Assembly (NCBI GenBank): GCA_964510945.1
Contig: CAZEED010000004.1
Location: 1,250-65,249, forward strand
DNA: 64,000 bases
Direction: 5' to 3'
DNA from: an uncultured Candidatus Saccharibacteria bacterium
Lineage (GTDB): Bacteria; Patescibacteriota; Saccharimonadia; Saccharimonadales; JAGQNJ01
Within the stretch, counting starts at the first letter, position 1; each line of letters opens with the position of its first letter. The notes beneath the pieces were generated by a model that did no database searches, was not told the DNA's origin, and saw only the letters and a list, made by a program, of their open reading frames with translations. Of this stretch, positions 2,842 through 53,692 are shown one piece after another. A program made the position numbers and the translations under genes.

Positions 2842-3453
2842 TCATTTAACAAACAAGTGCCTGTTCTCGATCATTAATTCATAAAGTCGCTCGTAGTACG
2901 GGCTAATAATTTTCGATGATGTTGCTTTATCTTTTTTTTGTTCATGAAGCTGTTCTAATGTTATTTTTTCAGTCTTCCATGTATATCCATCGTTTAGCAG
3001 ATTAAGCATTACTGGCAATATTTTGTCCAGCGAATAGACAAACTTAGCCTCGTCTGAATTCATTTTTTCGTATTCTTGAATATGATCATGCATATCAAAA
3101 AAATCTGGCCATTCTGCCTGAATCTTTTCAAGTGCTTCATGCTCACGTTTTTTCTTACTCTGTAGATGCTCTTTATCTGCAAAAATATAAGTATCGCCAG
3201 CGTAAACTTCTACTAAATCATGTACGAGCGCAAACCGTATAACCTTGTCTCTATCTATTTCTGGAAAATAATTCGCTAAAAACCATCCCATCATCGCCAA
3301 ACTATAGCTATGTTCTACGTCGTTTTCTTGTTTTTGTTTGTCATTCTTTTTTACATGAATAACTCTATCTATCGCTTGGAATTTCAACAAAAAACTCTGG
3401 AACTCAATTAGACGTTCTATGTTTGGCTTCGTTCTTTTGTCCTTCATCGTCAC
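2842..3453 (-). CDS. HD-domain phosphohydrolase (YfbR-like 5'-nucleotidase type)
   Basis: EHSYSLAMM...ALVHDLVEVYAGDT gives the H..HD..D signature. A paralogue lies at 52936..53586. Confidence 0.7.
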   Translation of the reverse strand: MTMKDKRTKPNIERLIEFQSFLLKFQAIDRVIHVKKNDKQKQENDVEHSYSLAMMGWFLANYFPEIDRDKVIRFALVHDLVEVYAGDTYIFADKEHLQSKKKREHEALEKIQAEWPDFFDMHDHIQEYEKMNSDEAKFVYSLDKILPVMLNLLNDGYTWKTEKITLEQLHEQKKDKATSSKIISPYYERLYELMIENRHLFVK

Positions 3454-4183: not shown

Positions 4184-5371
4184 ATGACACAACAAAATAA
4201 CAAAGGTTTTTCGCACATAGAGACATTTTTAGTGCTCTTAGTGGTGGTGGTTATTAGTGCTATTGGATTTAGCGTATACAAACGTTCTTCCGGAAATGAA
4301 TTTAAACTTGCCAATGCAGCAGGTTGCCCAGTAGCTGCCCAAACAGTAGGGGCTAGAGCGAGACACTGGAGAATAAATAAAGAAACCTGGATTAGAGACC
4401 AAGGTTCAAATTATCTATGGGTTCTTAAGATTGGTGGTAGCTCAGAAAGGATTAGGGACATAAATAATTCTCAAAATCGAATGCTAAAAAATCATGACTT
4501 AAGGTTGTTGCAACGACAAGAGATGGCTAGCATGTTTGGTTTTGGAGGCACAGCAGGCGGTGCAACATGGGATGAAATATGCAAAAGCGAACAACGATGC
4601 GGAGATCCTTCAACGTCAAACTGGGGTGATGATGTAAAAGTTAGAAAATGTCGAACCGCTGAGTTAAATAAGTCACTACCGAAATACATGAAAGGTATGA
4701 AAACTATATACACCGACAATAAAGGTGTAAAGCTAAAAGCATGTAGAGATTCAAACAATCCGGCCAGACCTGTACGATTTGCGGTATATGACATCTACAC
4801 AAAGGCGAAACAAGTAGCTCGGAGTAGATCTAATGGCGCGGTAACCGGAAGTGACATTGCGCGCGCTCAAAACGAACTTTACAATTATGGGAGTCCAAGT
4901 CGAACCACAGCCAGTGAAACATACGAGTCATTCGTGGGTCACCTACAACTTAATTCCGGCAAAACAAGGAAGGTTTGGGACGGACGGAGTAAAGTAGCGT
5001 CTATCCAACGAATCAGATCCAATAGTGGAGTTAGCTGGTATACGGGTAGCAGAGATCCGAAAAATCTATCAGAAACTCTGTATTTTTACAACAAGATTGA
5101 AGGCTACGATAAAAAAGCTAATGGTGGCGAGACAAATCCTATCGTAAAATTCAGGCTTAAATATTCAAGCAATGGAACTGAAGTTAAAAAGATTGTTACT
5201 GCTAGATTCAAAAAATTATCAGTCTGCGGCAAAAAGATGTTCCCAGCAACATACTACGAAGAAGCTGTTCAGCAAGGATGGGAAAGCTCGTCCGGTACCA
5301 TAAAGACTGGTCCATACGGGGACACCTCAAACCCATACGCCGACAGAACATCTTCATCGCACGTTCTTTAA
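4184..5371 (+). CDS. Large secreted protein with a type IV prepilin-like leader; body unknown
   Basis: N-terminus MTQQNNKG|FSHIETFLVLLVVVVISAIGF has G at -1, F at +1 and E at +5, followed by a hydrophobic helix. The rest has no motif I recognise. Confidence 0.5.
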   Translation: MTQQNNKGFSHIETFLVLLVVVVISAIGFSVYKRSSGNEFKLANAAGCPVAAQTVGARARHWRINKETWIRDQGSNYLWVLKIGGSSERIRDINNSQNRMLKNHDLRLLQRQEMASMFGFGGTAGGATWDEICKSEQRCGDPSTSNWGDDVKVRKCRTAELNKSLPKYMKGMKTIYTDNKGVKLKACRDSNNPARPVRFAVYDIYTKAKQVARSRSNGAVTGSDIARAQNELYNYGSPSRTTASETYESFVGHLQLNSGKTRKVWDGRSKVASIQRIRSNSGVSWYTGSRDPKNLSETLYFYNKIEGYDKKANGGETNPIVKFRLKYSSNGTEVKKIVTARFKKLSVCGKKMFPATYYEEAVQQGWESSSGTIKTGPYGDTSNPYADRTSSSHVL

Positions 5372-7580: not shown

Positions 7581-8093
7581 CTAGTAGTAGCGCTCGACTA
7601 CATCAATAACCCCATTAGTGCACAACTCTGGGTTTTCTTGAACAAGTCTTTTTAACTCGCTTTTTGAAAACCACTTAACTTCTGATACTTCCTTCTCTTG
7701 GAGTTTGTTTGGCGTGTCTTTTGTAACGTATTTATAGACGGTATTAAATTGATTCAAGGTATAGTCGCCGGCTTTTGTAGAATTATAGTATTTGCCGACT
7801 TCGATCAAGTGATCAGTTTTAATACCGATTTCTTCAAATAGCTCTCTCTTTGCTGCCGTCAGATAGTCTTCCCCATCATCAACATGCCCTGCTGCAGAGT
7901 TATCCCATCTTCCTGGATACAATGGGTTATTAAAAGACCTTTTTTGCAAAAGGACATTATCTCCAGACTCATCCTCGACCATAATTCGCGCTATACGCAC
8001 AGTCCAACCATGCAATCTAGCCTGATGCTGATCACCCGTTCTAACTACATGGTCATTTTTGTCAACGATCTGTACAAGAATATCGTGTGCCAC
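7581..8093 (-). CDS. Nudix hydrolase
   Basis: Nudix box GHVDDGEDYLTAAKRELFEEIGI. Confidence 0.85.
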   Translation of the reverse strand: MAHDILVQIVDKNDHVVRTGDQHQARLHGWTVRIARIMVEDESGDNVLLQKRSFNNPLYPGRWDNSAAGHVDDGEDYLTAAKRELFEEIGIKTDHLIEVGKYYNSTKAGDYTLNQFNTVYKYVTKDTPNKLQEKEVSEVKWFSKSELKRLVQENPELCTNGVIDVVERYY

Positions 8094-22775: not shown

Positions 22776-24401
22776 CTAGAATTTCTTTCTTAGTCGATTA
22801 AAATATTTCTTTAGCTCTGACCTATACTCGTATACTCCATAGCCAAATAATCCCGCTCCAACAACTGCCAAAGCACCGTTACTCACTGGATTGGCAGTTG
22901 CCGTAGCCACATTCTCTAAGCCTCCGGCAGTGTTTACGCCAGCGACCTTTCTACATCGATTAGTCTCCTTATTTCTGACCGATCCTTTTTCACAAGCCTT
23001 TAATAAACTTCCGGAATCTATTTTCTTGCACCGATTTGTTTCGGGGTTTCGAAATTGATCCGAAGCACATGGTTTCAACGAGGAGGCCAATACTGCAATT
23101 TTCTTACATCTGTTTGTCTCCGGATTCCGGTACTGATCACTATTACAGGCTTTTAGGACACTCAATGTGGTACTTTTTAAGCGACAGCGGTTAGTTTCGG
23201 GACTACGGTACTGATTTGAATTACAAGGCACCAAACTAGACGAGGTAACGATATTTTTACAGCGATTTGTTTCAGGGTTTCGAAACTTACCTGGTGGACA
23301 TGGCGTTATGCCCCCTTTTCCTCCGGTGTCTATAAACAATTGAGTGGGGCCAAGATTGGGTTCGTTCGGGGTAACCTGATCAGTTACAACCCACTCCCCA
23401 TCAACGAACGCCCAACTCTCACCTTCTCCAACTTTATCGTAGATTTCACTTGTATGGGTTATTGTGCCTCCTGGGTCTAACACCCTCGCGACACTCAAAG
23501 TATTGCTTAGCGTTAAATTAGTTTGCGCGGAATCCAGTGCGAGATATGATTTTGAGGCAATTTGAATAGATGGCAAAATGTAATTGTAATTAAAATCCAA
23601 GCCTGTTTGAATTTTATATCCTTCTAGATTAACAGCCTCGTTATTAGGATTATAAAGCTCAACAAATTCATCCTCGTCATCGGTTTGTGGGCTTGAAGGA
23701 TTAGGGAGTAACTCACTAATCGTAACTGGTAAGTAAGTCTCTATAGTAGGTTCAGGTTCGGGATTAGGTGTCGGATCAGGGTCGGGGGTAACAACTGGAG
23801 GGTCAACTTCGGGTGACGGAAGTTGCCCAGTTAGACTAAAGTTTGTCGAGTTATTATTCGTATCCATAGGATGGCCGTCATTATCAAATATGCGTTTTAT
23901 ACTACTCCCATTATCAGGAATAATAGCTTGAGCCGTCTCATAGCATTTAGCAGGTGACCCACTACTGCCCCAACCAACTAAATCAAAGATGCTAACAGAG
24001 GATTGGTCTACTGCAGTCTGCTTCAACCGTAAAGAGCCTCCAACATTATCATTTAGGCTAGTTTCAAAGATAATTCTCCCTCTAGGCTGGACAACCCCAG
24101 ATAAATTATCTTTTCTGACATTAGAACTAGCATCAATTGCTTTCCAGTCTGGAGAGCTACAATCCGAAGATGAAATTGTCGACGAGACTTTGGCATATTC
24201 TAGTGACCAACCAGCCAAATCTATCGGATTAGCACTGTCATTAAACAGTTCGACGAATTGCGTCGGTTGTCCGGCAACGGCACCACCTAACTTTATCTCG
24301 CTAATTAACACTCTCTCATTTAATGCTCTTGCTGGTAAAAAAGAGACACAAAATAATGCCAAAATAGTTAGCATTAGTGCTCGGCTGAAAAATATTTTCA
24401 T
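22776..24401 (-). CDS. Surface protein: signal peptide, two lamin-tail (LTD) domains, five Cys-pair repeats, C-terminal TM anchor
   Basis: LISEIKLGG...QFVELFN...L.GWSL and ISELLPNP...EFVELYNP...LEGY are LTD signatures. They are joined by a Pro-rich linker. The C-terminal hydrophobic segment is followed by RLRKKF. Confidence 0.7.
   Translation of the reverse strand: MKIFFSRALMLTILALFCVSFLPARALNERVLISEIKLGGAVAGQPTQFVELFNDSANPIDLAGWSLEYAKVSSTISSSDCSSPDWKAIDASSNVRKDNLSGVVQPRGRIIFETSLNDNVGGSLRLKQTAVDQSSVSIFDLVGWGSSGSPAKCYETAQAIIPDNGSSIKRIFDNDGHPMDTNNNSTNFSLTGQLPSPEVDPPVVTPDPDPTPNPEPEPTIETYLPVTISELLPNPSSPQTDDEDEFVELYNPNNEAVNLEGYKIQTGLDFNYNYILPSIQIASKSYLALDSAQTNLTLSNTLSVARVLDPGGTITHTSEIYDKVGEGESWAFVDGEWVVTDQVTPNEPNLGPTQLFIDTGGKGGITPCPPGKFRNPETNRCKNIVTSSSLVPCNSNQYRSPETNRCRLKSTTLSVLKACNSDQYRNPETNRCKKIAVLASSLKPCASDQFRNPETNRCKKIDSGSLLKACEKGSVRNKETNRCRKVAGVNTAGGLENVATATANPVSNGALAVVGAGLFGYGVYEYRSELKKYFNRLRKKF
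22950..23300 (-). repeat. Coding tandem repeat, 5 x C-x3/4-Q-[FY]-R-N-P-E-T-N-R-C-[KR]
   Basis: CPPGKFRNPETNRCK / CNSNQYRSPETNRCR / CNSDQYRNPETNRCK / CASDQFRNPETNRCK / CEKGSVRNKETNRCR, spaced about 24 aa apart. Confidence 0.75.
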
Positions 24402-26643: not shown

Positions 26644-26914
26644 GCCAATAATGATTATCAGCAGAATACCACGAATAGCGTTATAGCATTGACTTTTCTC
26701 TCTAAAACAGAGATAATTCACTCTGTTTTACACCATTTTGGTGCAAGCCAAATCCGGGTCCGTAGCCCCGCCTGTCTGACCGACAGGACGGACAGGTCAG
26801 CTGCATAGGCAAGCATAGCTTGCCGTAAATAATTTATAAGCACCTGTGCTCTAACACAAAACTGTTCTTTTACAAATAAGATATAGTCACAACCGTAGAC
26901 TAGCCTTTACATCC

Positions 26915-26991
26915 GGGTCCGTAGCTCAGCTGGTTAGAGCACCTGCCTTTTAAGCAGGGTGTCGTGGGTTCAAGTCCCACCGGACCCTCCA
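26915..26991 (+). tRNA. tRNA-Lys (anticodon TTT), CCA encoded
   Basis: Hand-folded cloverleaf: acceptor GGGTCCG/CGGACCC, D arm GCTC/GAGC, anticodon arm CCTGC-CTTTTAA-GCAGG, T arm GTGGG-TTCAAGT-CCCAC. Confidence 0.9.
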
Positions 26992-27046
26992 TCCTCCGTC
27001 GCAAATCTCTTTAGAGATTAGCTATGGAGGATTTTGTGTTTTTTGG
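26991..27046 (+). terminator. Two-tier hairpin plus T-run after tRNA-Lys
   Basis: ATCCTCC...GGAGGAT encloses AATCTC-TTTA-GAGATT and is followed by TTTGTGTTTTTT. Confidence 0.6.
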
Positions 27047-27265
27047 GCTTAAATCTACGACAAGCCTTGTGGTATCGTGGGGGAGAAATGCCAGTTGGCA
27101 TTTCGTACAGTCGGAAACCCGGAGTATATTAATGCCCAAGCTGAGACGGGGTCGCGGAATTTTTCATAGAAAAATATCTGTGACCAAGTCCGTAAACCTA
27201 GACCACCAATTCAGCTTTGCCTAAAACAGGGGAAATTAACCTCTGTTCTTGATATACTAAATAGC

Positions 27266-49680: not shown

Positions 49681-49700
49681 TGGTGTCGGTGGCTGGAATT
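49681..49700 (-). repeat. Copy of the 3' end of the adjacent CAT tRNA (19/20 nt)
   Basis: TGGTGTCGGTGGcTGGAATT versus TGGTGTCGGTGGtTGGAATT at 49755..49774. The copy lies 54 nt beyond the tRNA 3' end. Confidence 0.7.
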
Positions 49701-49754
49701 CCTCATCAATCAAAAATCCTTCATAGCACTGCCGAAAGGTAGAGCGACGAAGGA

Positions 49755-49831
49755 TGGTGTCGGTGGTTGGAATTGAACCAACGACCTCAGGCTTATGAGT
49801 CCTGCGCTCTAACCAACTGAGCTACACCGAC
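49755..49831 (-). tRNA. tRNA with CAT anticodon (elongator Met or lysidine-dependent Ile2; not distinguishable by eye), CCA encoded
   Basis: Hand-folded: acceptor GTCGGTG/CACCGAC, D arm GCTC/GAGC, anticodon arm CAGGA-CTCATAA-GCCTG (31:39 A.G), T arm GTTGG-TTCAATT-CCAAC. Confidence 0.88.
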
Positions 49832-49989
49832 ATGGTTACCGACAGGGGTAAATATATCATATCTTAGCTTTTGATACTAGATTGCATGTCATACTTTCTC
49901 CATCAGCAGAGAAATTATGCAAAGATGCCGTGCCGACTGCTTATTCTTGATATAGCTTCTGATCAATAACTACAACAGCCTGCGGAACG

Positions 49990-50355
49990 ACGAGCGCCCC
50001 GAATAGTTCTTTTAGTGTAATTATTCGGGGTAGTCCTCGGCTAACTAGTTGTAGTATTGACGAAGTTATTCAAGAAAAACAGAGGCAGTACTATTAGTTA
50101 TACTCATAAAATACTGGCCATAAGCCAGATTACAATAGTGAAACTAAGCTTTGGGATGGGCCTCTGATTGGTCCTGAGTAGATGTTGTGAAAAGTAGGCG
50201 CCCTTGGGCGCGAGGACTGTTTGAGATATGAATATGCCTGGTGGCATATTCATATTGAGTTCCACAGCGAGCCTACTTTTTATCAACAGATACATCAAGA
50301 GCTATCATCTGGCCCGCTGGTTTTATATTACTTTTGACTAAACAAAAGTAATGAT
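49990..50355 (+). ncRNA. Candidate structured RNA of unknown class
   Basis: Gene-free stretch with long perfect helices: 49997..50008/50019..50030; 50032..50039/50211..50218; 50190..50199/50271..50280; 50226..50238/50243..50255; 50327..50336/50343..50352. The helix extensions need G.U pairs that exist only on the + strand. Confidence 0.35.
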
Positions 50356-50387
50356 ATCACGGGATTAAATCCGTAAAGATAGGATTT

Positions 50388-50561
50388 TTAGTCCTCTATA
50401 TATTGGCCAACCTTATAACCAACCCAGATTCCGATAATTGTACCAACAAAGCCGCAAAGCAGACTCCAACCCGACAACATATTATTATTACCAAAAATAG
50501 CCGGTACATAAGCACCGGCTAGCCCACCGATTGAAGCAAAAATATATATAAATATTTTCAA
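50388..50561 (-). CDS. Small (57 aa) two-TM Gly-rich membrane protein, TTG start (tentative)
   Basis: Own translation: (M)KIFIYIFASIGGLAGAYVPAIFGNNNMLSGWSLLCGFVGTIIGIWVGYKVGQYIED*. It is preceded by a 25-codon ORF (50574..50651, MGDLTYEVVETDNVAIREVDSILFS*) that has a GGAG RBS. Confidence 0.4.
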   Translation of the reverse strand: MKIFIYIFASIGGLAGAYVPAIFGNNNMLSGWSLLCGFVGTIIGIWVGYKVGQYIED

Positions 50562-50779: not shown

Positions 50780-50808
50780 TTGACATCTGTTATCTGTAAT
50801 GTTAGTAT
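50780..50808 (+). promoter_or_regulatory. Promoter of the initiator-like tRNA
   Basis: TTGACA (50780..50785), 17 nt spacer, TAGTAT (50803..50808), about 40 nt upstream of the tRNA. Confidence 0.6.
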
Positions 50809-50850: not shown

Positions 50851-50925
50851 TGCGGGATGGAGCAGCGGCAGCTCGCGTGGCTCATAACCACGAGGTCGTA
50901 GGTTCGAGTCCTACTCCCGCAACCA
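50851..50925 (+). tRNA. tRNA-Met CAT, probably initiator (fMet), CCA encoded
   Basis: Hand-folded: acceptor TGCGGGA/TCCCGCA, D arm GAGC/GCTC with A11:U24, anticodon arm CGTGG-CTCATAA-CCACG, T arm GTAGG-TTCGAGT-CCTAC. It is close overall to E. coli tRNA-fMet (..GGAGCAGC..GCTCG..GGCTCATAACC..AGGTCG..CCCGCAACCA). Confidence 0.88.
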
Positions 50926-51118
50926 AGAAAAGAGACTTGTCATTTTGACAGGTCTTTTTTCTTGGTCGGAAGTTGGGCTCGAAGCTACGACCGAGTAGAG
51001 GTCCTAGGTGAAAACAGCCCGATGGCTGTTTGCAAGAGAATGTTCACCTGACAGCTGTGCTGTCTTGGCAGAACTTCTGGGCCCGCAGAATGTGGGCGAG
51101 TCCTGGTCCCGCAACCAA
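50919..51118 (+). repeat. 200-bp direct repeat, copy 1 (tRNA end core + trailer unit B1)
   Basis: Compared base by base with 52696..52895 and found identical. Confidence 0.9.
50933..50960 (+). terminator. Terminator after the initiator-like tRNA (second identical copy at 52710..52737)
   Basis: AGACTTGTC-ATTTT-GACAGGTCT followed by TTTTT. Confidence 0.7.
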
Positions 51119-51307
51119 AATATGAACCTCATCGTAAGCTGGGGTTTTTATTTTGGTTATGGGGCTTAGGGCCGAACTGGACATCCTGAGGTCCCAGGGG
51201 AGAACTGCCATGGTGGCAGTTCGGAAGAGAACAAACTCTTGAAAACTGGTTTTCAAAGATGTTTTTCTGGGGTCGCGGAACGTGACCGAGTCCTGGTCCC
51301 GCAACCA
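51118..51307 (+). other. Non-coding unit B2 ending in the same tRNA-end mimic
   Basis: Ends ...TTCTGGGGTCGCGGAACGTGACCGAGTCCTGGTCCCGCAACCA, homologous to the end of B1. It contains the hairpin GAACTGCCA-TGG-TGGCAGTTC. Confidence 0.6.
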
Positions 51308-51956
51308 ATCATAAGCAAATTTGTTACCTCTGCAAAAAGAGGTTTTTTACTTTACTTCTATATGTTTAACAATTGTGTCCACAACAGTTTCTACAGGCTG
51401 AGAGCTATCTATAAGGATTGCTCCAGTCGTGCGTTCATATTCTTTAGAGCGTTCATTCCAGTCAATTAGACCCTGTAATTCAGCAGAGCCGTCAACCCAT
51501 CGCTCTGGCTCACGAGCTTGCAAACGCACTATCAAAGTAGGTGTATCTACGAAGAGGCCGAAACGTTTATCAAATAAGTGGTGAAAATCTTTCTGGTTAT
51601 GTGCTCCTCCGACGATAAATACAGGTTCCTCACCTGCTTCACGTGCCAACTCCTCAAACCTAAGGACATCCCATAGCCATGCATGAGTATCTACCCACTC
51701 TTTCGGAAATGGTTGTGATGGTGCTTCTACCTTCTTGCCAGTCTCCTTGTTCACCCACGCACTTAAACCAGGCTCAAAGTCAGTCTCTACAACCTTGAGA
51801 CCTCGTTTTTGTAATTCCCTACCGGCATGGCTCTTGCCGGAACCAGAGGGACCAGAAATGTGATATAAAGGCACGCTTTATATTATACCTATAATTGTTT
51901 CCATCTGGTCAATCCAGCAAGCAATCCGTTCCAATTCGAGTGAACCTTGGCAACCA
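51308..51956. mobile_element. Cassette-like unit A (R2 arm ... P-loop gene ... L2 arm)
   Basis: Starts ATCATAAGCAAATTTGTTACCTCTGCAAAAAGAGGTTTTTT and ends ...CCAATTCGAGTGAACCTTGGCAACCA. Confidence 0.4.
51347..51874 (-). CDS. P-loop NTPase, nucleoside/nucleotide kinase-like
   Basis: ISGPSGSGKSHAGREL Walker A; about 175 aa. Confidence 0.7.
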   Translation of the reverse strand: MPLYHISGPSGSGKSHAGRELQKRGLKVVETDFEPGLSAWVNKETGKKVEAPSQPFPKEWVDTHAWLWDVLRFEELAREAGEEPVFIVGGAHNQKDFHHLFDKRFGLFVDTPTLIVRLQAREPERWVDGSAELQGLIDWNERSKEYERTTGAILIDSSQPVETVVDTIVKHIEVK

Positions 51957-52702
51957 ATCATAAGCAAAGATTTGTCCTCTGTAAAAGAAGGTTGATTTAG
52001 TTAATTTTGCTATGATTAGAAAATGCAGATAAAAACTGTGCTGTTCGACATAGGGGGCGTACTTACACCGGATCCTTATGAATCAATCCTTCTACACGAA
52101 GAACATGGACTGGGACACGATTTAAATCTAACGAAAGAAGAGCTATCCAAGAAACTCAGCGTCGTATGGGAAAAATATGCCACAACTGACAACACAAGCG
52201 AAACTGAGTTCTGGGATGAGGTAAATCAAACCATTGGGACCAAGTTAAGAGAAGAAGATATTGTGGCAGTACGACGCAAGGTCATTATCCCTAATTCAGA
52301 AACTAATACAGTATTCAGCTTTCTCACAGATAAAGGTATTCGACTGGGTATTATCTCAAATAACACTTCTTTCTTTTATGAGCTACAAGCAAGCATGCTG
52401 CCTATTAAAAAGTATATTGATGCTAATCTTATCTTTCTCTCTCAAGAAGAACATTGCAGGAAATCAGATGGGTTGTTTGAAGTTGCCGCAGAAGCCCTTG
52501 ACCCAAAAAGTACTTTTGTAATCGACGACCGAGTCAGTAACGTTGAATACGCAAAAAAGCTTGGTTTTGACGGCGAGGTCTATTCAATGGAAGACGGCGA
52601 TTCCCTGCTCTCACTAGTCCAACGCATACTTGTTAGATAACTCCTCCCACCTAGCCAACTCCTCCAACAACTCGTTCCAATTCGAATGTACTAGGGCAAC
52701 CA
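51957..52702. mobile_element. Cassette-like unit B (R2 arm ... HAD gene ... L2 arm)
   Basis: Starts ATCATAAGCAAAGATTTGTCCTCTGTAAAAGAAGG and ends ...CCAATTCGAATGTACTAGGGCAACCA. Confidence 0.4.
52023..52640 (+). CDS. HAD-superfamily hydrolase
   Basis: Motif I VLFDIGGVL; ISNN (motif II region); ...VIDDR (motif IV). Confidence 0.8.
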   Translation: MQIKTVLFDIGGVLTPDPYESILLHEEHGLGHDLNLTKEELSKKLSVVWEKYATTDNTSETEFWDEVNQTIGTKLREEDIVAVRRKVIIPNSETNTVFSFLTDKGIRLGIISNNTSFFYELQASMLPIKKYIDANLIFLSQEEHCRKSDGLFEVAAEALDPKSTFVIDDRVSNVEYAKKLGFDGEVYSMEDGDSLLSLVQRILVR

Positions 52703-52895
52703 AGAAAAGAGACTTGTCATTTTGACAGGTCTTTTTTCTTGGTCGGAAGTTGGGCTCGAAGCTACGACCGAGTAGAGGTCCTAGGTGAAAACAGCCCGAT
52801 GGCTGTTTGCAAGAGAATGTTCACCTGACAGCTGTGCTGTCTTGGCAGAACTTCTGGGCCCGCAGAATGTGGGCGAGTCCTGGTCCCGCAACCAA
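52696..52895 (+). repeat. 200-bp direct repeat, copy 2 (unit B1')
   Basis: Identical to 50919..51118. Confidence 0.9.
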
Positions 52896-53692
52896 TCATA
52901 AGCAAATATTTTGCCTCTGTAAAAGGAGGTCTTTTTTAGTAACCTCCTACACCCTCTTCTGGTTGGTCGTAATATTGTGCCTTAAAATGCTCAATCATCG
53001 TCTCAAATATCTCTCTGATGTGAGGGGAGCTCCTCTCGATTACATCTTTGTACTTGTCGCAAAAAGACTGATAATTTATATTTAAAATGCGGTATGGTCG
53101 CCATTCATCCATTTCGCCCATAATTAATGCCTGCACTTTATCAACGGTCCATACAAACACAGCCTCGTCATCTTCCTTATCTTCATAACTCTGCATTGCT
53201 ACCACGAGACCACCGAAGTCTGCAAACTCGCCAGATAGCACTTCGAGTGCTACCGCTTCATCTTCAACTTTTTGTTGGCGTTCTGCATCGCTGGCAAATG
53301 CATTCACATCACCTGCTCGAGCTTCAATAAGGTCATGAGCAAGTGCATACTTCAGTACTTTAGCTTCATCAAGTTCTAAATTATACTTTTCAAGAATAAA
53401 CCAGCTCATCAGCGTAACCGCCAAGGTATGCTCACAGTCGTTTTCTCGGCGTTCAGTACCTGCTAGAAAATGGTTTCGGCCTACAAGCGAGAAGTCAATA
53501 ACAAGTTGCTGGACAAAATATAGCGTGGGGTCAGGTGCCTCACCCATTGCGGGCTGAGTCTTCCTTTCATGCTCAGGGTCTATCATAGTATCTAAATACT
53601 AGACTATGGTGTAGAAACCGCAAGCTTGAGCATCTTCCACCTAACCAGCTCCTCTAGCACAATGCTCCAATTCGAATACACTAGGGCAACCA
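52895..53692. mobile_element. Cassette-like unit C (R2 arm ... HD gene ... L2 arm)
   Basis: Starts ATCATAAGCAAATATTTTGCCTCTGTAAAAGGAGGTCTTTTTT and ends ...CCAATTCGAATACACTAGGGCAACCA. Confidence 0.4.
52936..53586 (-). CDS. HD-domain phosphohydrolase (paralogue of 2842..3453)
   Basis: ENDCEHTLAVTLMSWF...LKYALAHDLIEARAGD. Confidence 0.75.
   Translation of the reverse strand: MIDPEHERKTQPAMGEAPDPTLYFVQQLVIDFSLVGRNHFLAGTERRENDCEHTLAVTLMSWFILEKYNLELDEAKVLKYALAHDLIEARAGDVNAFASDAERQQKVEDEAVALEVLSGEFADFGGLVVAMQSYEDKEDDEAVFVWTVDKVQALIMGEMDEWRPYRILNINYQSFCDKYKDVIERSSPHIREIFETMIEHFKAQYYDQPEEGVGGY

What the first reader, a model, noticed from the sequence alone, without database searches (positions are those of the whole stretch)
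50919..51307. Two non-coding ~190-nt units ending in an encoded tRNA-end/CCA mimic; hairpin with compensatory substitutions; one unit repeated perfectly 1.8 kb away
Unit B1 (50926..51117) is repeated without a single mismatch at 52703..52894. The full identical block is 200 bp: 50919..51118 equals 52696..52895.

B1 and the neighbouring unit B2 (51118..51307) differ over most of their length but share a homologous 43-nt end: TTCTGGGCCCGCAGAATGTGGGCGAGTCCTGGTCCCGCAACCA versus TTCTGGGGTCGCGGAACGTGACCGAGTCCTGGTCCCGCAACCA.

Inside that end, a 6-bp hairpin is maintained by two compensatory pair changes: GCCCGC/GTGGGC in B1 versus GGTCGC/GTGACC in B2 (C-G to G-C and C-G to T-A). B1 has further nested helices, AGGTGAA...TTCACCT enclosing AAACAGCC-CGAT-GGCTGTTT, and GACAGC-TGT-GCTGTC.

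Covariation plus an encoded CCA suggests these are functional RNAs or protein-binding sites, such as tRNA-mimicking RNAs or secondary attachment sites, rather than junk. The tracked ORFs inside them (51044..51304, 52807..53085) look spurious.
Basis: seen in the sequence. Interest (0 to 1): 0.6.

Follow-up and report, generated by a model that had tools for sequence, protein, structure and literature searches.

The report
Folded tRNA-half cassettes beside tRNA genes
The two ~190-base units are real, structured, non-coding mobile units, each built from an antisense and a sense copy of the neighbouring tRNA gene's 3' half. They sit in a strain-variable row of single-gene cassettes stacked behind a tRNA-Met gene in a Saccharibacteria genome, an arrangement I could not find described.

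Summary
50919-51118 equals 52696-52895 exactly (200 bp). B1 and B2 are homologous along their whole length, and the hairpin covaries.

The "CCA mimic" is not a convergent mimic. It is the true last 20 nt of the tRNA-Met gene allele found in sister genomes.

Each unit has four parts:
- a terminator hairpin whose stem reaches back across the preceding CCA;
- a reverse-complement copy of the tRNA 3' half;
- a sense copy interrupted at the T loop by a conserved three-hairpin module;
- the tRNA 3' end.

Nine distinct copies support a five-helix fold: 91.8% of cells paired, 29 of 50 pairs with double changes, 0 of 500 shuffles as good. The + strand folds better. One copy is built on tRNA-Lys arms and lies beside tRNA-Lys.

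The units sit among single-gene cassettes (kinase, HAD, HD), all ending in ...GCAACCA. Cassette content differs between strains. In sister strains an element carrying a serine recombinase is inserted exactly at the tRNA-Lys CCA.

Best reading: mobile, attachment-site-regenerating, structured non-coding cassettes of a tRNA-linked cassette array. Whether the fold acts as RNA or as single-stranded DNA is open. There is no Rfam, phage, plasmid or literature match.

The parts
50851..50925 (+). tRNA-Met (CAT) gene, the anchor of the array. It ends ...GAGTCCTACTCCCGCAACCA.
   Evidence: ARAGORN; Rfam tRNA 65.9 bits. A TTGACA-17-TAGTAT promoter lies at 50780-50808.
50926..51117 (+). Unit B1. Its parts are: first hairpin 50926-50962; antisense tRNA-half arm 50963-50995; sense V-loop plus T-stem 5' strand 50998-51008; module H1 51012-51031, H2 51037-51078, H3 51081-51097; tRNA 3' end 51098-51117.
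   Evidence: Coordinates; fold; covariance model R1 139 bits; the arm is the reverse complement of the window's tRNA-Met allele.
51118..51307 (+). Unit B2. Its parts are: first hairpin 51118-51153; antisense arm 51154-51187; sense 51188-51198; H1 51202-51222; H2 51228-51268; H3 51271-51287; tRNA 3' end 51288-51307.
   Evidence: R1 148 bits. 96.7% identical to L004 204-414.
51308..51350 (.). D4a: ATCATAAGCAAA plus a hairpin. It is a + strand terminator and carries a minus-strand promoter-like TTTGCA-17-TATGAT.
   Evidence: Repeat family D4.
51347..51874 (-). Cassette gene: 175-aa P-loop kinase-like protein (AAA_18).
   Evidence: Pfam. Found with different upstream neighbours in L026.
51898..51956 (+). 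D3a: ~60-nt cassette-end repeat ending GGCAACCA (a tRNA-3'-end-like sequence).
   Evidence: Repeat family D3; 15-copy alignment.
51957..52006 (.). D4b: start of the next cassette, with a minus-strand TTTACA-17-TATGAT promoter pointing at the kinase gene.
52023..52640 (+). Cassette gene: 205-aa HAD-family hydrolase.
   Evidence: Pfam; found on other contigs.
52644..52702 (+). D3b cassette-end repeat, ending GGGCAACCA.
52703..52894 (+). Unit B1', an exact second copy of B1.
52895..52935 (.). D4c: terminator plus minus-strand promoter-like site.
52936..53586 (-). Cassette gene: 216-aa HD_3 phosphohydrolase.
   Evidence: Pfam. 95% identical over 52950-53692 to L007 3886-3144, but with a different left-hand start module.
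53634..53692 (+). D3c, the last cassette-end repeat and the distal end of the array.
26915..26991 (+). tRNA-Lys (TTT) gene, the anchor of the Lys-type unit.
26992..27208 (+). Unit B-Lys. Its parts are: first hairpin 26992-27031; antisense arm 27032-27066; sense GGTATCGTGGG 27071-27081; H1 27085-27104; H3 27150-27185; end 27186-27208 (...ACCACCA).
   Evidence: R1 43.5 bits, E 6e-10; coordinates; the arm is the reverse complement of the tRNA-Lys T arm.

Best explanation
B1, B2 and B1' belong to a family of mobile, non-coding, structured cassettes. They lie in a strain-variable cassette array that has grown by site-specific insertion at the CCA end of the tRNA-Met gene in a Saccharibacteria lineage.

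Each unit is made of five parts:
1. A terminator hairpin that ends transcription of the tRNA or cassette in front. Its stem reaches back over the junction into the preceding acceptor strand and CCA.
2. A reverse-complement copy of the local tRNA's 3' half.
3. A sense copy of the variable loop and 5' T-stem strand.
4. A conserved three-hairpin module of about 90 nt, sitting where the first three T-loop bases would be.
5. The last 20 nt of the tRNA gene.

Because every unit ends in the same tRNA 3' end, each insertion recreates the insertion site. Units and gene cassettes can therefore pile up head to tail.

On the + strand the antisense and sense arms pair (P1, P2) and the module forms H1-H3, giving a five-helix junction that is under selection.

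I infer that the fold acts in the + strand read-through transcript from the tRNA or cassette promoter. There it would serve as terminator and insulator and would mask the pseudo-tRNA end. I also infer that the recombinase is supplied in trans, plausibly a large serine recombinase like the one seen at tRNA-Lys in sister strains.

Shown: the anatomy, the covariation, the strand bias, the discrete duplication bounded by GCAACCA, the strain variability, and the insertion of a recombinase-bearing element exactly at a tRNA CCA.

Inferred: the recombination mechanism for B itself, the identity of the enzyme, RNA as the active form, and the function of the fold.
For: Anatomy and homology to the tRNA:
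- The 20-nt end equals the tRNA-Met 3' end in L004 and L007.
- The left arms align to the reverse complement of the tRNA 3' half, and they track allele and tRNA type. wB1 matches the window allele with score 38 and 0/2000 shuffles as good. B-Lys matches tRNA-Lys with p 0.0015.
- The first hairpin crosses the CCA junction in all Met-type units.

Structure:
- 19/50 pairs are compensatory in 7 sequences.
- On 9 distinct sequences 91.8% of cells are paired, against 75.2% in shuffles. 29 pairs have double changes, against 15.9. 0/500 shuffles reach the observed values, and slid controls pair 32-46%.
- The + strand folds better: alifold -52.5 versus -46.2, mean MFE -62.1 versus -53.4; G.U 29 versus A.C 6 cells.
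- The unit bodies have GC 0.54-0.57 against 0.407 for the window.

Mobility and array:
- There is an exact 200-bp second copy bounded by GCAACCA on both sides.
- Seven GCAACCA lie on one strand within 2.8 kb.
- L007 has an identical flanking protein but a different array, with three other B units plus HAD, HD, NUDIX and other cassettes.
- L004 and L026 show mosaic sharing of cassettes.
- Assemblies break at the array.

Precedent for the insertion point:
- In L046 and L047 a ~4-kb element with a 545-aa Resolvase/Recombinase/Zn-ribbon protein lies exactly between the tRNA-Lys CCA and the B-Lys hairpin. That site is empty in the window.
- Every unit starts with a terminator.
Against: - No recombinase gene was found in the window, with about 45 ORFs scanned, or beside the arrays in L004 and L007.
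- No excised circle or empty-site junction for a B unit was observed.
- B has no promoter of its own and lies directly behind a terminator with a T run, so RNA levels may be low.
- Double-stranded site-specific recombination does not by itself explain why H1-H3 covary.
- Breakpoints between strains are not always at the CCA. The kinase cassette's left breakpoint is at 51315, and the HD cassette has different start modules.
- The family was found only in one narrow clade. One genome-collection hit was found and none in JGI metagenomes. The covariation therefore rests on 9 related sequences.
Confidence: 0.45

Rival explanations
1. B is primarily a trans-acting structured RNA gene that happens to ride in the array. 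Its arms hold a 30-40-nt antisense to the tRNA's 3' half, masked by a sense decoy. The module binds a protein or ligand. The RNA would sponge or decoy a factor that recognises the tRNA T arm and acceptor end (a toxin, nuclease or modification enzyme), or would pair with the tRNA itself when unmasked.
For: - Covariation is strong in all five helices, with conserved junction purines (UGA, GCAAGRRAA, GG) and variable helix sequences, which is the usual signature of a folded RNA.
- There is + strand bias and G.U pairs.
- GC enrichment resembles that of tRNAs in a 41% GC genome.
- The arms are retargeted to tRNA-Lys while the module is kept.
- All nine units lie downstream of a + strand transcription unit.
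Against: - There is no promoter, and a terminator lies immediately upstream.
- There is no Rfam relative.
- No partner protein gene is conserved next to the units.
- Copy number and position vary between strains as for a mobile element.
- No expression data are available.
Confidence: 0.25
2. The fold acts in single-stranded DNA. Pairing of the antisense and sense arms rebuilds a duplex copy of the tRNA gene's T-arm and acceptor region, with the module as an unpaired central bulge. A recombinase would recognise this folded site and recombine it with the double-stranded tRNA gene. Folded integron attC sites and the CTX-phage attP(+) hairpin work this way (my own knowledge of those systems). The incoming single strand could come from natural transformation, since ComEC and type IV pilus genes are in the window.
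For: - The arms are an inverted plus direct copy of the target and are tRNA-specific.
- Together with the first hairpin, a circularised unit would be one continuous rod.
- The fold is strand-specific.
- The array has single-gene cassettes like an integron.
- ComEC, pilus and RecA genes are present.
Against: - No IntI- or Xer-type recombinase was seen.
- The gene cassettes end in D3 repeats that show no conserved hairpin.
- The conserved junction sequences and three-hairpin architecture of the module are unlike the free-varying tip of attC sites.
- The GC skew is negative throughout the window, so by the usual rule (my own knowledge) the folding (+) strand is not the one left single-stranded as lagging-strand template.
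Confidence: 0.15
3. B is a non-autonomous IS200/IS605-type element (a PATE or REPIN-like hairpin element). An HUH transposase would move it as single-stranded DNA and insert it 3' of CAACCA.
For: - There are no terminal inverted repeats and no target duplication other than the target word.
- Hairpins lie near both ends, all copies share one orientation, and units insert in tandem 3' of a fixed short word.
Against: - The left hairpin sequence differs between unit types.
- 20-40 nt of tRNA homology far exceeds a tetra- or pentanucleotide target.
- No Y1 transposase or TnpB was found in the window.
- The folding strand is on the wrong side for lagging-strand-template transposition, judged by GC skew.
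Confidence: 0.05
4. The units are inert scars: displaced tRNA 3' ends and arm DNA left by past integrations of now-deleted islands, with no present function.
For: Direct repeats of tRNA 3' ends downstream of tRNA genes are the classic footprint of integrative elements. A plain 21-nt copy without a module follows the minus-strand tRNA-Met (49681-49701).
Against: - Scars do not keep five helices through 29 double substitutions.
- Scars do not keep a common module on arms retargeted from tRNA-Met to tRNA-Lys.
- Scars do not exist as an exact 200-bp second copy.
Confidence: 0.05

Closest known systems
Tandem genomic islands at tRNA genes (attL/attR repeats of the tRNA 3' end)
   Same: - The anchor is a tRNA gene.
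- Every unit ends in a copy of the tRNA 3' end.
- Each inserted unit supplies a new terminator for the tRNA.
- Content differs between strains.
- A recombinase-bearing element sits at the tRNA-Lys CCA in sister strains.
   Different: - Units are 0.19-1 kb and carry one gene or none, with no integrase of their own.
- B units also hold an antisense copy of the tRNA half and a covarying module, which att scars do not have.
Integron cassette arrays and attC sites (including clusters of attC sites lacking an integrase)
   Same: - Single-gene and non-coding cassettes lie in a row, each ended by a ~60-nt family repeat.
- Content is strain-variable.
- In B, a strand-specific fold pairs two inverted half-sites.
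   Different: - No IntI was found.
- The R'/R'' core sequences (GTTRRRY) are absent.
- Cassettes have their own promoters and lie in both orientations.
- The D3 ends show no conserved hairpin.
- The anchor is a tRNA gene rather than attI.
SCC-type composite islands at the 3' end of rlmH, moved by large serine recombinases (CcrAB)
   Same: - Insertion is at the extreme 3' end of a conserved gene.
- Elements stack in tandem, separated by short direct repeats.
- Many members lack a recombinase and depend on one in trans.
- A large serine recombinase is seen using a tRNA CCA site in this lineage.
   Different: - The target is a tRNA gene.
- Units are far smaller.
- No recombinase has been linked to the tRNA-Met array itself.
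- SCC repeats are not structured.
CTX-phage attP(+) folded single-strand site
   Same: Two inverted copies of a chromosomal recombination site pair within one strand and imitate the duplex target, with an unpaired central region.
   Different: - Here the imitated target is a tRNA gene's T arm and acceptor end.
- The central bulge is a conserved three-hairpin module.
- No Xer involvement is shown, and the single-stranded DNA form is not shown.
REPIN / PATE hairpin elements
   Same: - They are short, non-coding, multi-copy and fold strongly.
- All copies share one orientation.
- They depend on an enzyme in trans.
   Different: - tRNA-derived arms are retargeted per tRNA.
- Insertion is strictly at tRNA-like ends.
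- No RAYT or TnpA was found.

Membership tests
tRNA gene / tRNA pseudogene | Cloverleaf with acceptor, D, anticodon and T arms, detectable by ARAGORN or the Rfam tRNA model | tested here: not met
   ARAGORN finds only 3 tRNAs in the window, none in B. Rfam at E<=10 gives no tRNA hit in B. Only positions ~40-76 of the tRNA are present, and the T loop is interrupted.
tmRNA | tRNA-like domain with alanine identity plus a tag reading frame | tested here: not met
   No tmRNA from ARAGORN or Rfam. The acceptor end is that of tRNA-Met.
Any curated RNA family (Rfam 15) | Covariance-model match at or near the gathering score | tested here: not met
   Only weak microRNA-model hits to the terminator hairpin, far below gathering scores.
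Integron cassette array / attC | IntI tyrosine recombinase next to the array | tested here: not met
   None in the window ORFs scanned or in the called genes of L004, L007 and L025.
Integron cassette array / attC | attC with inverse core and core sites (RYYYAAC ... GTTRRRY) pairing as a hairpin | tested here: not met
   The D3 alignment of 15 copies shows the conserved blocks TCCACCTARCCARCTC and GTTCCAATTCGAATGNACTAGGGCAACCA, with no such cores or conserved pairing.
Integron cassette array / attC | Row of mostly single-gene cassettes that differs between strains | tested here: met
   The window, L007, L004 and L026 all differ.
tRNA-targeting integrative elements | Direct repeat of the tRNA 3' end at the far end of the insert | tested here: met
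   20 nt identical to the tRNA-Met allele of L004 and L007. Seven GCAACCA lie on one strand.
tRNA-targeting integrative elements | Integrase encoded by the element | tested here: not met
   B units are non-coding. The cassettes encode kinase, HAD and HD proteins. Only the separate ~4-kb element at tRNA-Lys in L046 and L047 carries a recombinase.
tRNA-targeting integrative elements | Occupied and empty sites among strains | tested here: inconclusive
   Met for the tRNA-Lys element (window empty, L046 occupied). For B units only differences in number and type were seen, with no clean empty-site pair.
Large-serine-recombinase composite islands (SCC-like) | Large serine recombinase acting on the site | not testable with these tools
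   A 545-aa Resolvase/Recombinase/Zn-ribbon protein is present in the tRNA-Lys element of sister strains. Its activity on the tRNA-Met CCA site cannot be tested here.
IS200/IS605 PATE / REPIN | HUH (Y1) transposase or RAYT in the genome, and the active strand on the lagging-strand template | tested here: not met
   None in the window. The + strand has negative GC skew. The rest of the genome was not available.
Structured non-coding RNA (generic) | Conserved secondary structure with compensatory changes, and strand bias | tested here: met
Structured non-coding RNA (generic) | Discrete transcript with its own promoter or defined processing | not testable with these tools
   No promoter-like site in the units, and a terminator lies upstream. 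No expression data.

The most novel reading that the evidence does not exclude
The units may be a new kind of self-templated, retargetable attachment element. A common three-hairpin module is flanked by an antisense and a sense copy of whichever tRNA gene it sits beside. The folded single strand (RNA or DNA) would present a duplex image of the target. By this reading the arms, not a protein's sequence preference, specify the tRNA gene at which units and gene cassettes are captured. That would make it a tRNA-anchored, integron-like gene-capture system in ultra-small Saccharibacteria.
Probability: 0.18. Interest if true: 0.85.

Novelty: new variant of a known kind. Interest (0 to 1): 0.62.

Why it matters
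Saccharibacteria and other ultra-small bacteria have tiny genomes, and how they gain genes is poorly understood.

This locus shows a compact, strain-variable row of single-gene cassettes (nucleotide kinase, HAD, HD and NUDIX enzymes) stacked on a tRNA gene. Interspersed with them is a conserved structured element that copies the tRNA's own 3' half in both orientations.

If the fold is part of the capture mechanism, this would be a gene-capture device distinct from integrons. If it is an RNA, it would be a new tRNA-linked RNA class whose arms can be swapped between tRNAs.

Either way it explains why assemblies of these genomes break at this point. It also gives a concrete, testable target for the few cultured relatives.

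Tried and rejected
- **tRNA, tmRNA or any known RNA family.** Rejected by ARAGORN and Rfam at both thresholds.
- **Coding.** Rejected because no frame is conserved.
- **Phage or plasmid origin.** No blastn hit in phages or plasmids. Viral-contig scans returned only true tRNA genes or a chance match.
- **More homologues.**
  - The T-loop-insertion pattern found one genome (L004).
  - The B-specific pattern found nothing in JGI metagenomes.
  - The D3 pattern found two short loci.
  - Homologues of the flanking 213-aa protein lie on contigs that break before the array.
  - HD homologues at 60-64% identity (L023, L038) are not in arrays.
  - The look-up of the 109-aa distal gene gave only copies of the window's own arrangement.
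- **Recombinase in the window.** About 45 ORFs were scanned and none was found.
Not kept in the family.
- **Hairpin pairing within D3.** No covariation; the two halves look more like a weak direct repeat.
- **Literature.** Five searches returned nothing relevant, and a Gracilibacteria 'hypervariation' paper concerns a protein repeat.
Full report
**The observation.** The sequence is as described. 50919-51118 and 52696-52895 are identical over exactly 200 bp, with mismatches immediately outside (family D1). The 43-nt ends of B1 and B2 share 37 positions. B1 and B2 are in fact alignable along their whole length. Both fold far better than shuffled versions: B1 -84.6 kcal/mol, z -5.0; B2 -74.2 kcal/mol, z -3.45. 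The two-sequence consensus already has 17 of 55 pairs with changes on both sides.

**Immediate context.** A tRNA-Met(CAT) gene ends at 50925, directly abutting B1. Seven copies of GCAACCA lie on the + strand between 50919 and 53692. They close, in order:
- the tRNA;
- B1;
- B2;
- a 60-nt repeat (D3a) following a minus-strand 175-aa kinase-like gene;
- D3b following a 205-aa HAD hydrolase gene;
- B1';
- D3c following a minus-strand 216-aa HD_3 gene.

Every segment begins, right after the CCA, with a hairpin followed by a T run. These are either the first hairpins of the B units or a repeated ATCATAAGCAAA-plus-hairpin element, D4.

**Origin of the "CCA mimic".** GAGTCCTGGTCCCGCAACCA is the real 3' end of tRNA-Met genes elsewhere: in two phage contigs and, decisively, in the orthologous tRNA-Met of two related Saccharibacteria assemblies, L004 and L007. 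The window's own tRNA has a compensated T-stem variant (GTAGG/CCTAC). This is despite the flanking 213-aa protein being identical to that of L007, so the tRNA's 3' part has been exchanged by recombination. In B the sequence GAGGTCCYAGG (variable loop plus 5' T-stem strand) precedes a block of about 90 nt. The block sits where the first three T-loop bases (TTC) would be, and the remaining 20 nt of the tRNA follow it.

**Related loci.**
- L004 is an uncultured Saccharibacteria MAG, found with a pattern requiring an 80-110-nt insertion in the T loop. It has tRNA-Met, a near-identical B2, a B-like unit with a different module fused to a gene, gene cassettes ended by D3-like repeats, and a B1-like unit.
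- L007 has the same flank as the window but a different array. It has a long B unit with an extra 135 nt inside H1, a HAD cassette, a second B unit, the HD cassette, a NUDIX cassette, a three-gene segment and a third B unit.
- L026 carries the kinase-HAD-B1 segment at 99.6% identity but behind different cassettes. It also has a B1 copy whose end runs into a gene instead of the acceptor-CCA.
- L005 and L006 show further D3-bounded cassettes in other metagenomes.
- Short-read assemblies repeatedly break at the tRNA or at B.

The region is therefore a strain-variable array of small cassettes, with B units as recurrent non-coding members.

**The family fold.** Seven units, two of them trimmed of private insertions, give this consensus:
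- an outer helix P1, 5' GGCCAAGATTCG with 3' CGAGTCCTGGTC;
- a hairpin P2, CTGGGACCTC-GC-GAGGTCCGAG;
- three hairpins H1, H2 and H3.

In that alignment 19 of 50 pairs are compensatory. A covariance model scores all units at 91-166 bits. It also finds a further member at window 27032-27205, 43.5 bits, E about 6e-10, just downstream of tRNA-Lys behind a terminator hairpin.

On the model-based alignment of 9 distinct sequences:
- 91.8% of cells pair, against 75.2% in column shuffles;
- 29 pairs have double changes, against 15.9 +/- 2.4;
- no shuffle in 500 reaches any observed measure;
- sliding the partner by 1-3 columns drops pairing to 32-46%.

These sequences are related and the alignment is fitted to the model. 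The numbers are therefore strong support, not a probability.

**The key anatomical point.** The 5' part of each unit is the reverse complement of the tRNA's 3' half, from the acceptor end through the T arm to the variable loop. It follows the local allele or tRNA:
- the B1 arm matches the window's tRNA-Met allele (score 38, 0 of 2000 shuffles as good);
- the L007 arm matches the L007 allele;
- the tRNA-Lys unit's arm matches tRNA-Lys (TGGG-CTTAAATCTACGACA against TGGGACTTGAACCCACGACA, p 0.0015).

P1 and P2 are therefore the pairing of an antisense and a sense copy of the tRNA half, with the module bulging out at the T-loop position. The Lys-type units keep module sequences close to B2 (H1 GGAGAAATGCC..GGCATTTCG; H3 GGGGTCGCGGAA..GTGACC) on tRNA-Lys arms. 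L043 even has two Lys-type units in tandem, the first ending in the tRNA-Lys 3' end with one mismatch.

The first hairpin's stem continues across the CCA junction into the preceding acceptor strand in all Met-type units. It covaries with that preceding end; in L004, for example, GGCAAGCA|ACAAAAA pairs with TTTTTGTTTGCC. tRNA-B1-B2 is therefore a run of alternating sense and antisense tRNA halves.

**Which strand, and which molecule.**
- The + strand folds better: consensus -52.5 versus -46.2 kcal/mol, mean single-sequence energy -62.1 versus -53.4. P1 is lost in the minus-strand consensus.
- G.U cells outnumber A.C cells 29 to 6, although the structure was predicted on the + strand, which biases this count.
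- Unit bodies are 54-57% GC in a 40.7% GC window, close to the tRNAs.
- No promoter-like site lies in the units. They sit behind terminators but always downstream of a + strand transcription unit, either a tRNA or a + strand cassette.
- The D4 element holds a minus-strand TTTACA-17-TATGAT site in all three copies, which would fire leftwards. For D4b that is towards the kinase gene. For D4a and D4c it is antisense through B. D4 does not follow B in L004 or L007, so this is not a family feature.
- The + strand has negative GC skew throughout. By the usual rule (my own knowledge) it is therefore not the strand left single-stranded as lagging-strand template.

These points lean towards a + strand RNA made by read-through, but nothing here measures transcription.

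**Mobility and enzyme.** The exact second copy of B1 is bounded on both sides by GCAACCA and nothing more. This is what insertion of a discrete unit at a short fixed site gives.

No recombinase or transposase is among about 45 window ORFs scanned. The window does encode ComEC, type IV pilus proteins, RecA and RuvABC.

In two sister assemblies a ~4-kb element encodes a 545-aa Resolvase/Recombinase/Zn-ribbon protein. It lies exactly between the tRNA-Lys CCA and the first hairpin of the Lys unit. The left junction is GGACCCTCCA|GAATCAG.. and the right junction is ..GAATCGCTCCA|TCCTCCG... The window has the empty site. The junction behind a tRNA's CCA is thus a proven site-specific insertion point in this lineage, and a large serine recombinase is a plausible enzyme class. 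Its action on the tRNA-Met array is an inference.

Breakpoints between strains are not all at the CCA. The kinase cassette's shared sequence starts at 51315, and the HD cassette has different start modules in the window and L007. Additional recombination between the repeated modules therefore also shapes the array.

**Comparison with known systems** (these rest on my own knowledge of those systems and were not checked with tools).
- The array works like tandem islands at tRNA genes and like SCC composite islands stacked at the 3' end of rlmH. Its cassette size resembles an integron. It fails the defining integron features tested: no IntI, no attC cores, cassettes with their own promoters in both orientations.
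- The antisense-plus-sense arms that rebuild a duplex image of the target recall folded attC sites and the CTX-phage attP(+) hairpin. Here, however, the central bulge is a conserved three-hairpin module, and single-stranded DNA is not shown.
- Rfam, phage, plasmid, viral-contig and metagenome searches gave no relative of the units.
- Five full-text searches found no description.

**Verdict.** The CCA end is a copied attachment-site sequence, not a convergent mimic. The units are structured, mobile, non-coding cassettes of a tRNA-anchored cassette array.

I put 0.45 on that reading, with the fold acting in the read-through transcript and the units regenerating the insertion site. The other readings:
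- 0.25 on a primarily trans-acting RNA;
- 0.15 on a folded single-stranded DNA recombination site;
- the remaining ~0.15 on an IS200/IS605-type element (0.05), inert scars (0.05) and anything not considered here.

Novelty: a new variant of a known kind. About an 18% chance remains that the arms-plus-module design is a new, retargetable attachment mechanism.

Noticed in passing
window 26992-27208 (tRNA-Lys at 26915-26991): A third family member sits behind tRNA-Lys. Its arms are derived from tRNA-Lys and it carries the same module. It ends ...ACCACCA. L043 has two Lys-type units in tandem.
   Followed up: yes
L046 5755-~9730; L047 1381-3018 (recombinase gene); window 26991|26992 is the empty site: In sister strains a ~4-kb element lies exactly between the tRNA-Lys CCA and the next hairpin. 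It carries a 545-aa large serine recombinase, a PRK-like kinase and a peptidase S66. It contains ~250-nt inverted repeats, one of which ends at the junction.
   Followed up: partly
window 26752-26766 and 26911-26925: A 15-nt direct repeat, ATCCGGGTCCGTAGC (the 5' end of tRNA-Lys), flanks ~145 nt. That stretch holds the tRNA's likely promoter and a hairpin, CCTGTCTGACCGACAGGACGGACAGG. A similar hairpin occurs in the opposite orientation in L007 unit 2.
   Followed up: no
window 49681-49701 versus 49755-49775 (minus-strand tRNA-Met 49755-49831): The second tRNA-Met gene is also followed by a terminator hairpin and then a 21-nt copy of its own 3' end ending ACCA, without any module. All three tRNA genes in the window therefore have a downstream copy of their 3' end.
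   Followed up: partly
window 51308-51336, 51957-51985, 52895-52923: The repeated ATCATAAGCAAA-plus-hairpin element carries a minus-strand TTTACA/TTTGCA-17-TATGAT promoter-like site in all three copies. It points into the unit that ends in CCA.
   Followed up: partly
window 52644-52702, 53634-53692 and 13 further D3 copies in L004-L007 and L026: The 5' block of the cassette-end repeat (CTAACCAGCT / CTAACCAACT) matches the reverse complement of a tRNA D loop over 10 nt (p about 0.004 per test, many tests). Two L026 copies carry a 16-nt hairpin inserted at the T-loop-like position.
   Followed up: partly
window ~52000-52025; L004 ~1880-1905 and ~3160-3187; L007 ~4930-4950: Plus-strand cassettes have a TTGNTATGAT-type -10 element only 6-7 nt before the ATG and no Shine-Dalgarno sequence, which suggests leaderless mRNAs. 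Many also carry a GGTTCGAGTCC-like T-loop fragment just upstream of that promoter.
   Followed up: no
window 51347-53586; L007 2526-4910; window 2842-3453 and 7581-8093: The cassette genes are nearly all small nucleotide-metabolism enzymes (AAA_18 kinase, HAD, HD_3 and NUDIX; NTPase_1 in L026). Core paralogues of HD_3 and NUDIX lie elsewhere in the window.
   Followed up: no
L007 5190-5272 region (unit 1); L004 415-632: One B unit has a private 135-nt insertion inside H1. Another unit keeps the tRNA-half arms but has a different internal module and is fused to a gene cassette instead of ending in CCA.
   Followed up: partly
window 49840-50400: About 560 nt between the two tRNA-Met genes has no convincing ORF and no Rfam match.
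   Followed up: no
window 23013-23303: Four 60-nt repeats spaced 75-78 nt apart lie inside the 541-aa lamin-tail-domain gene (22776-24401). They are probably a coding repeat.
   Followed up: no
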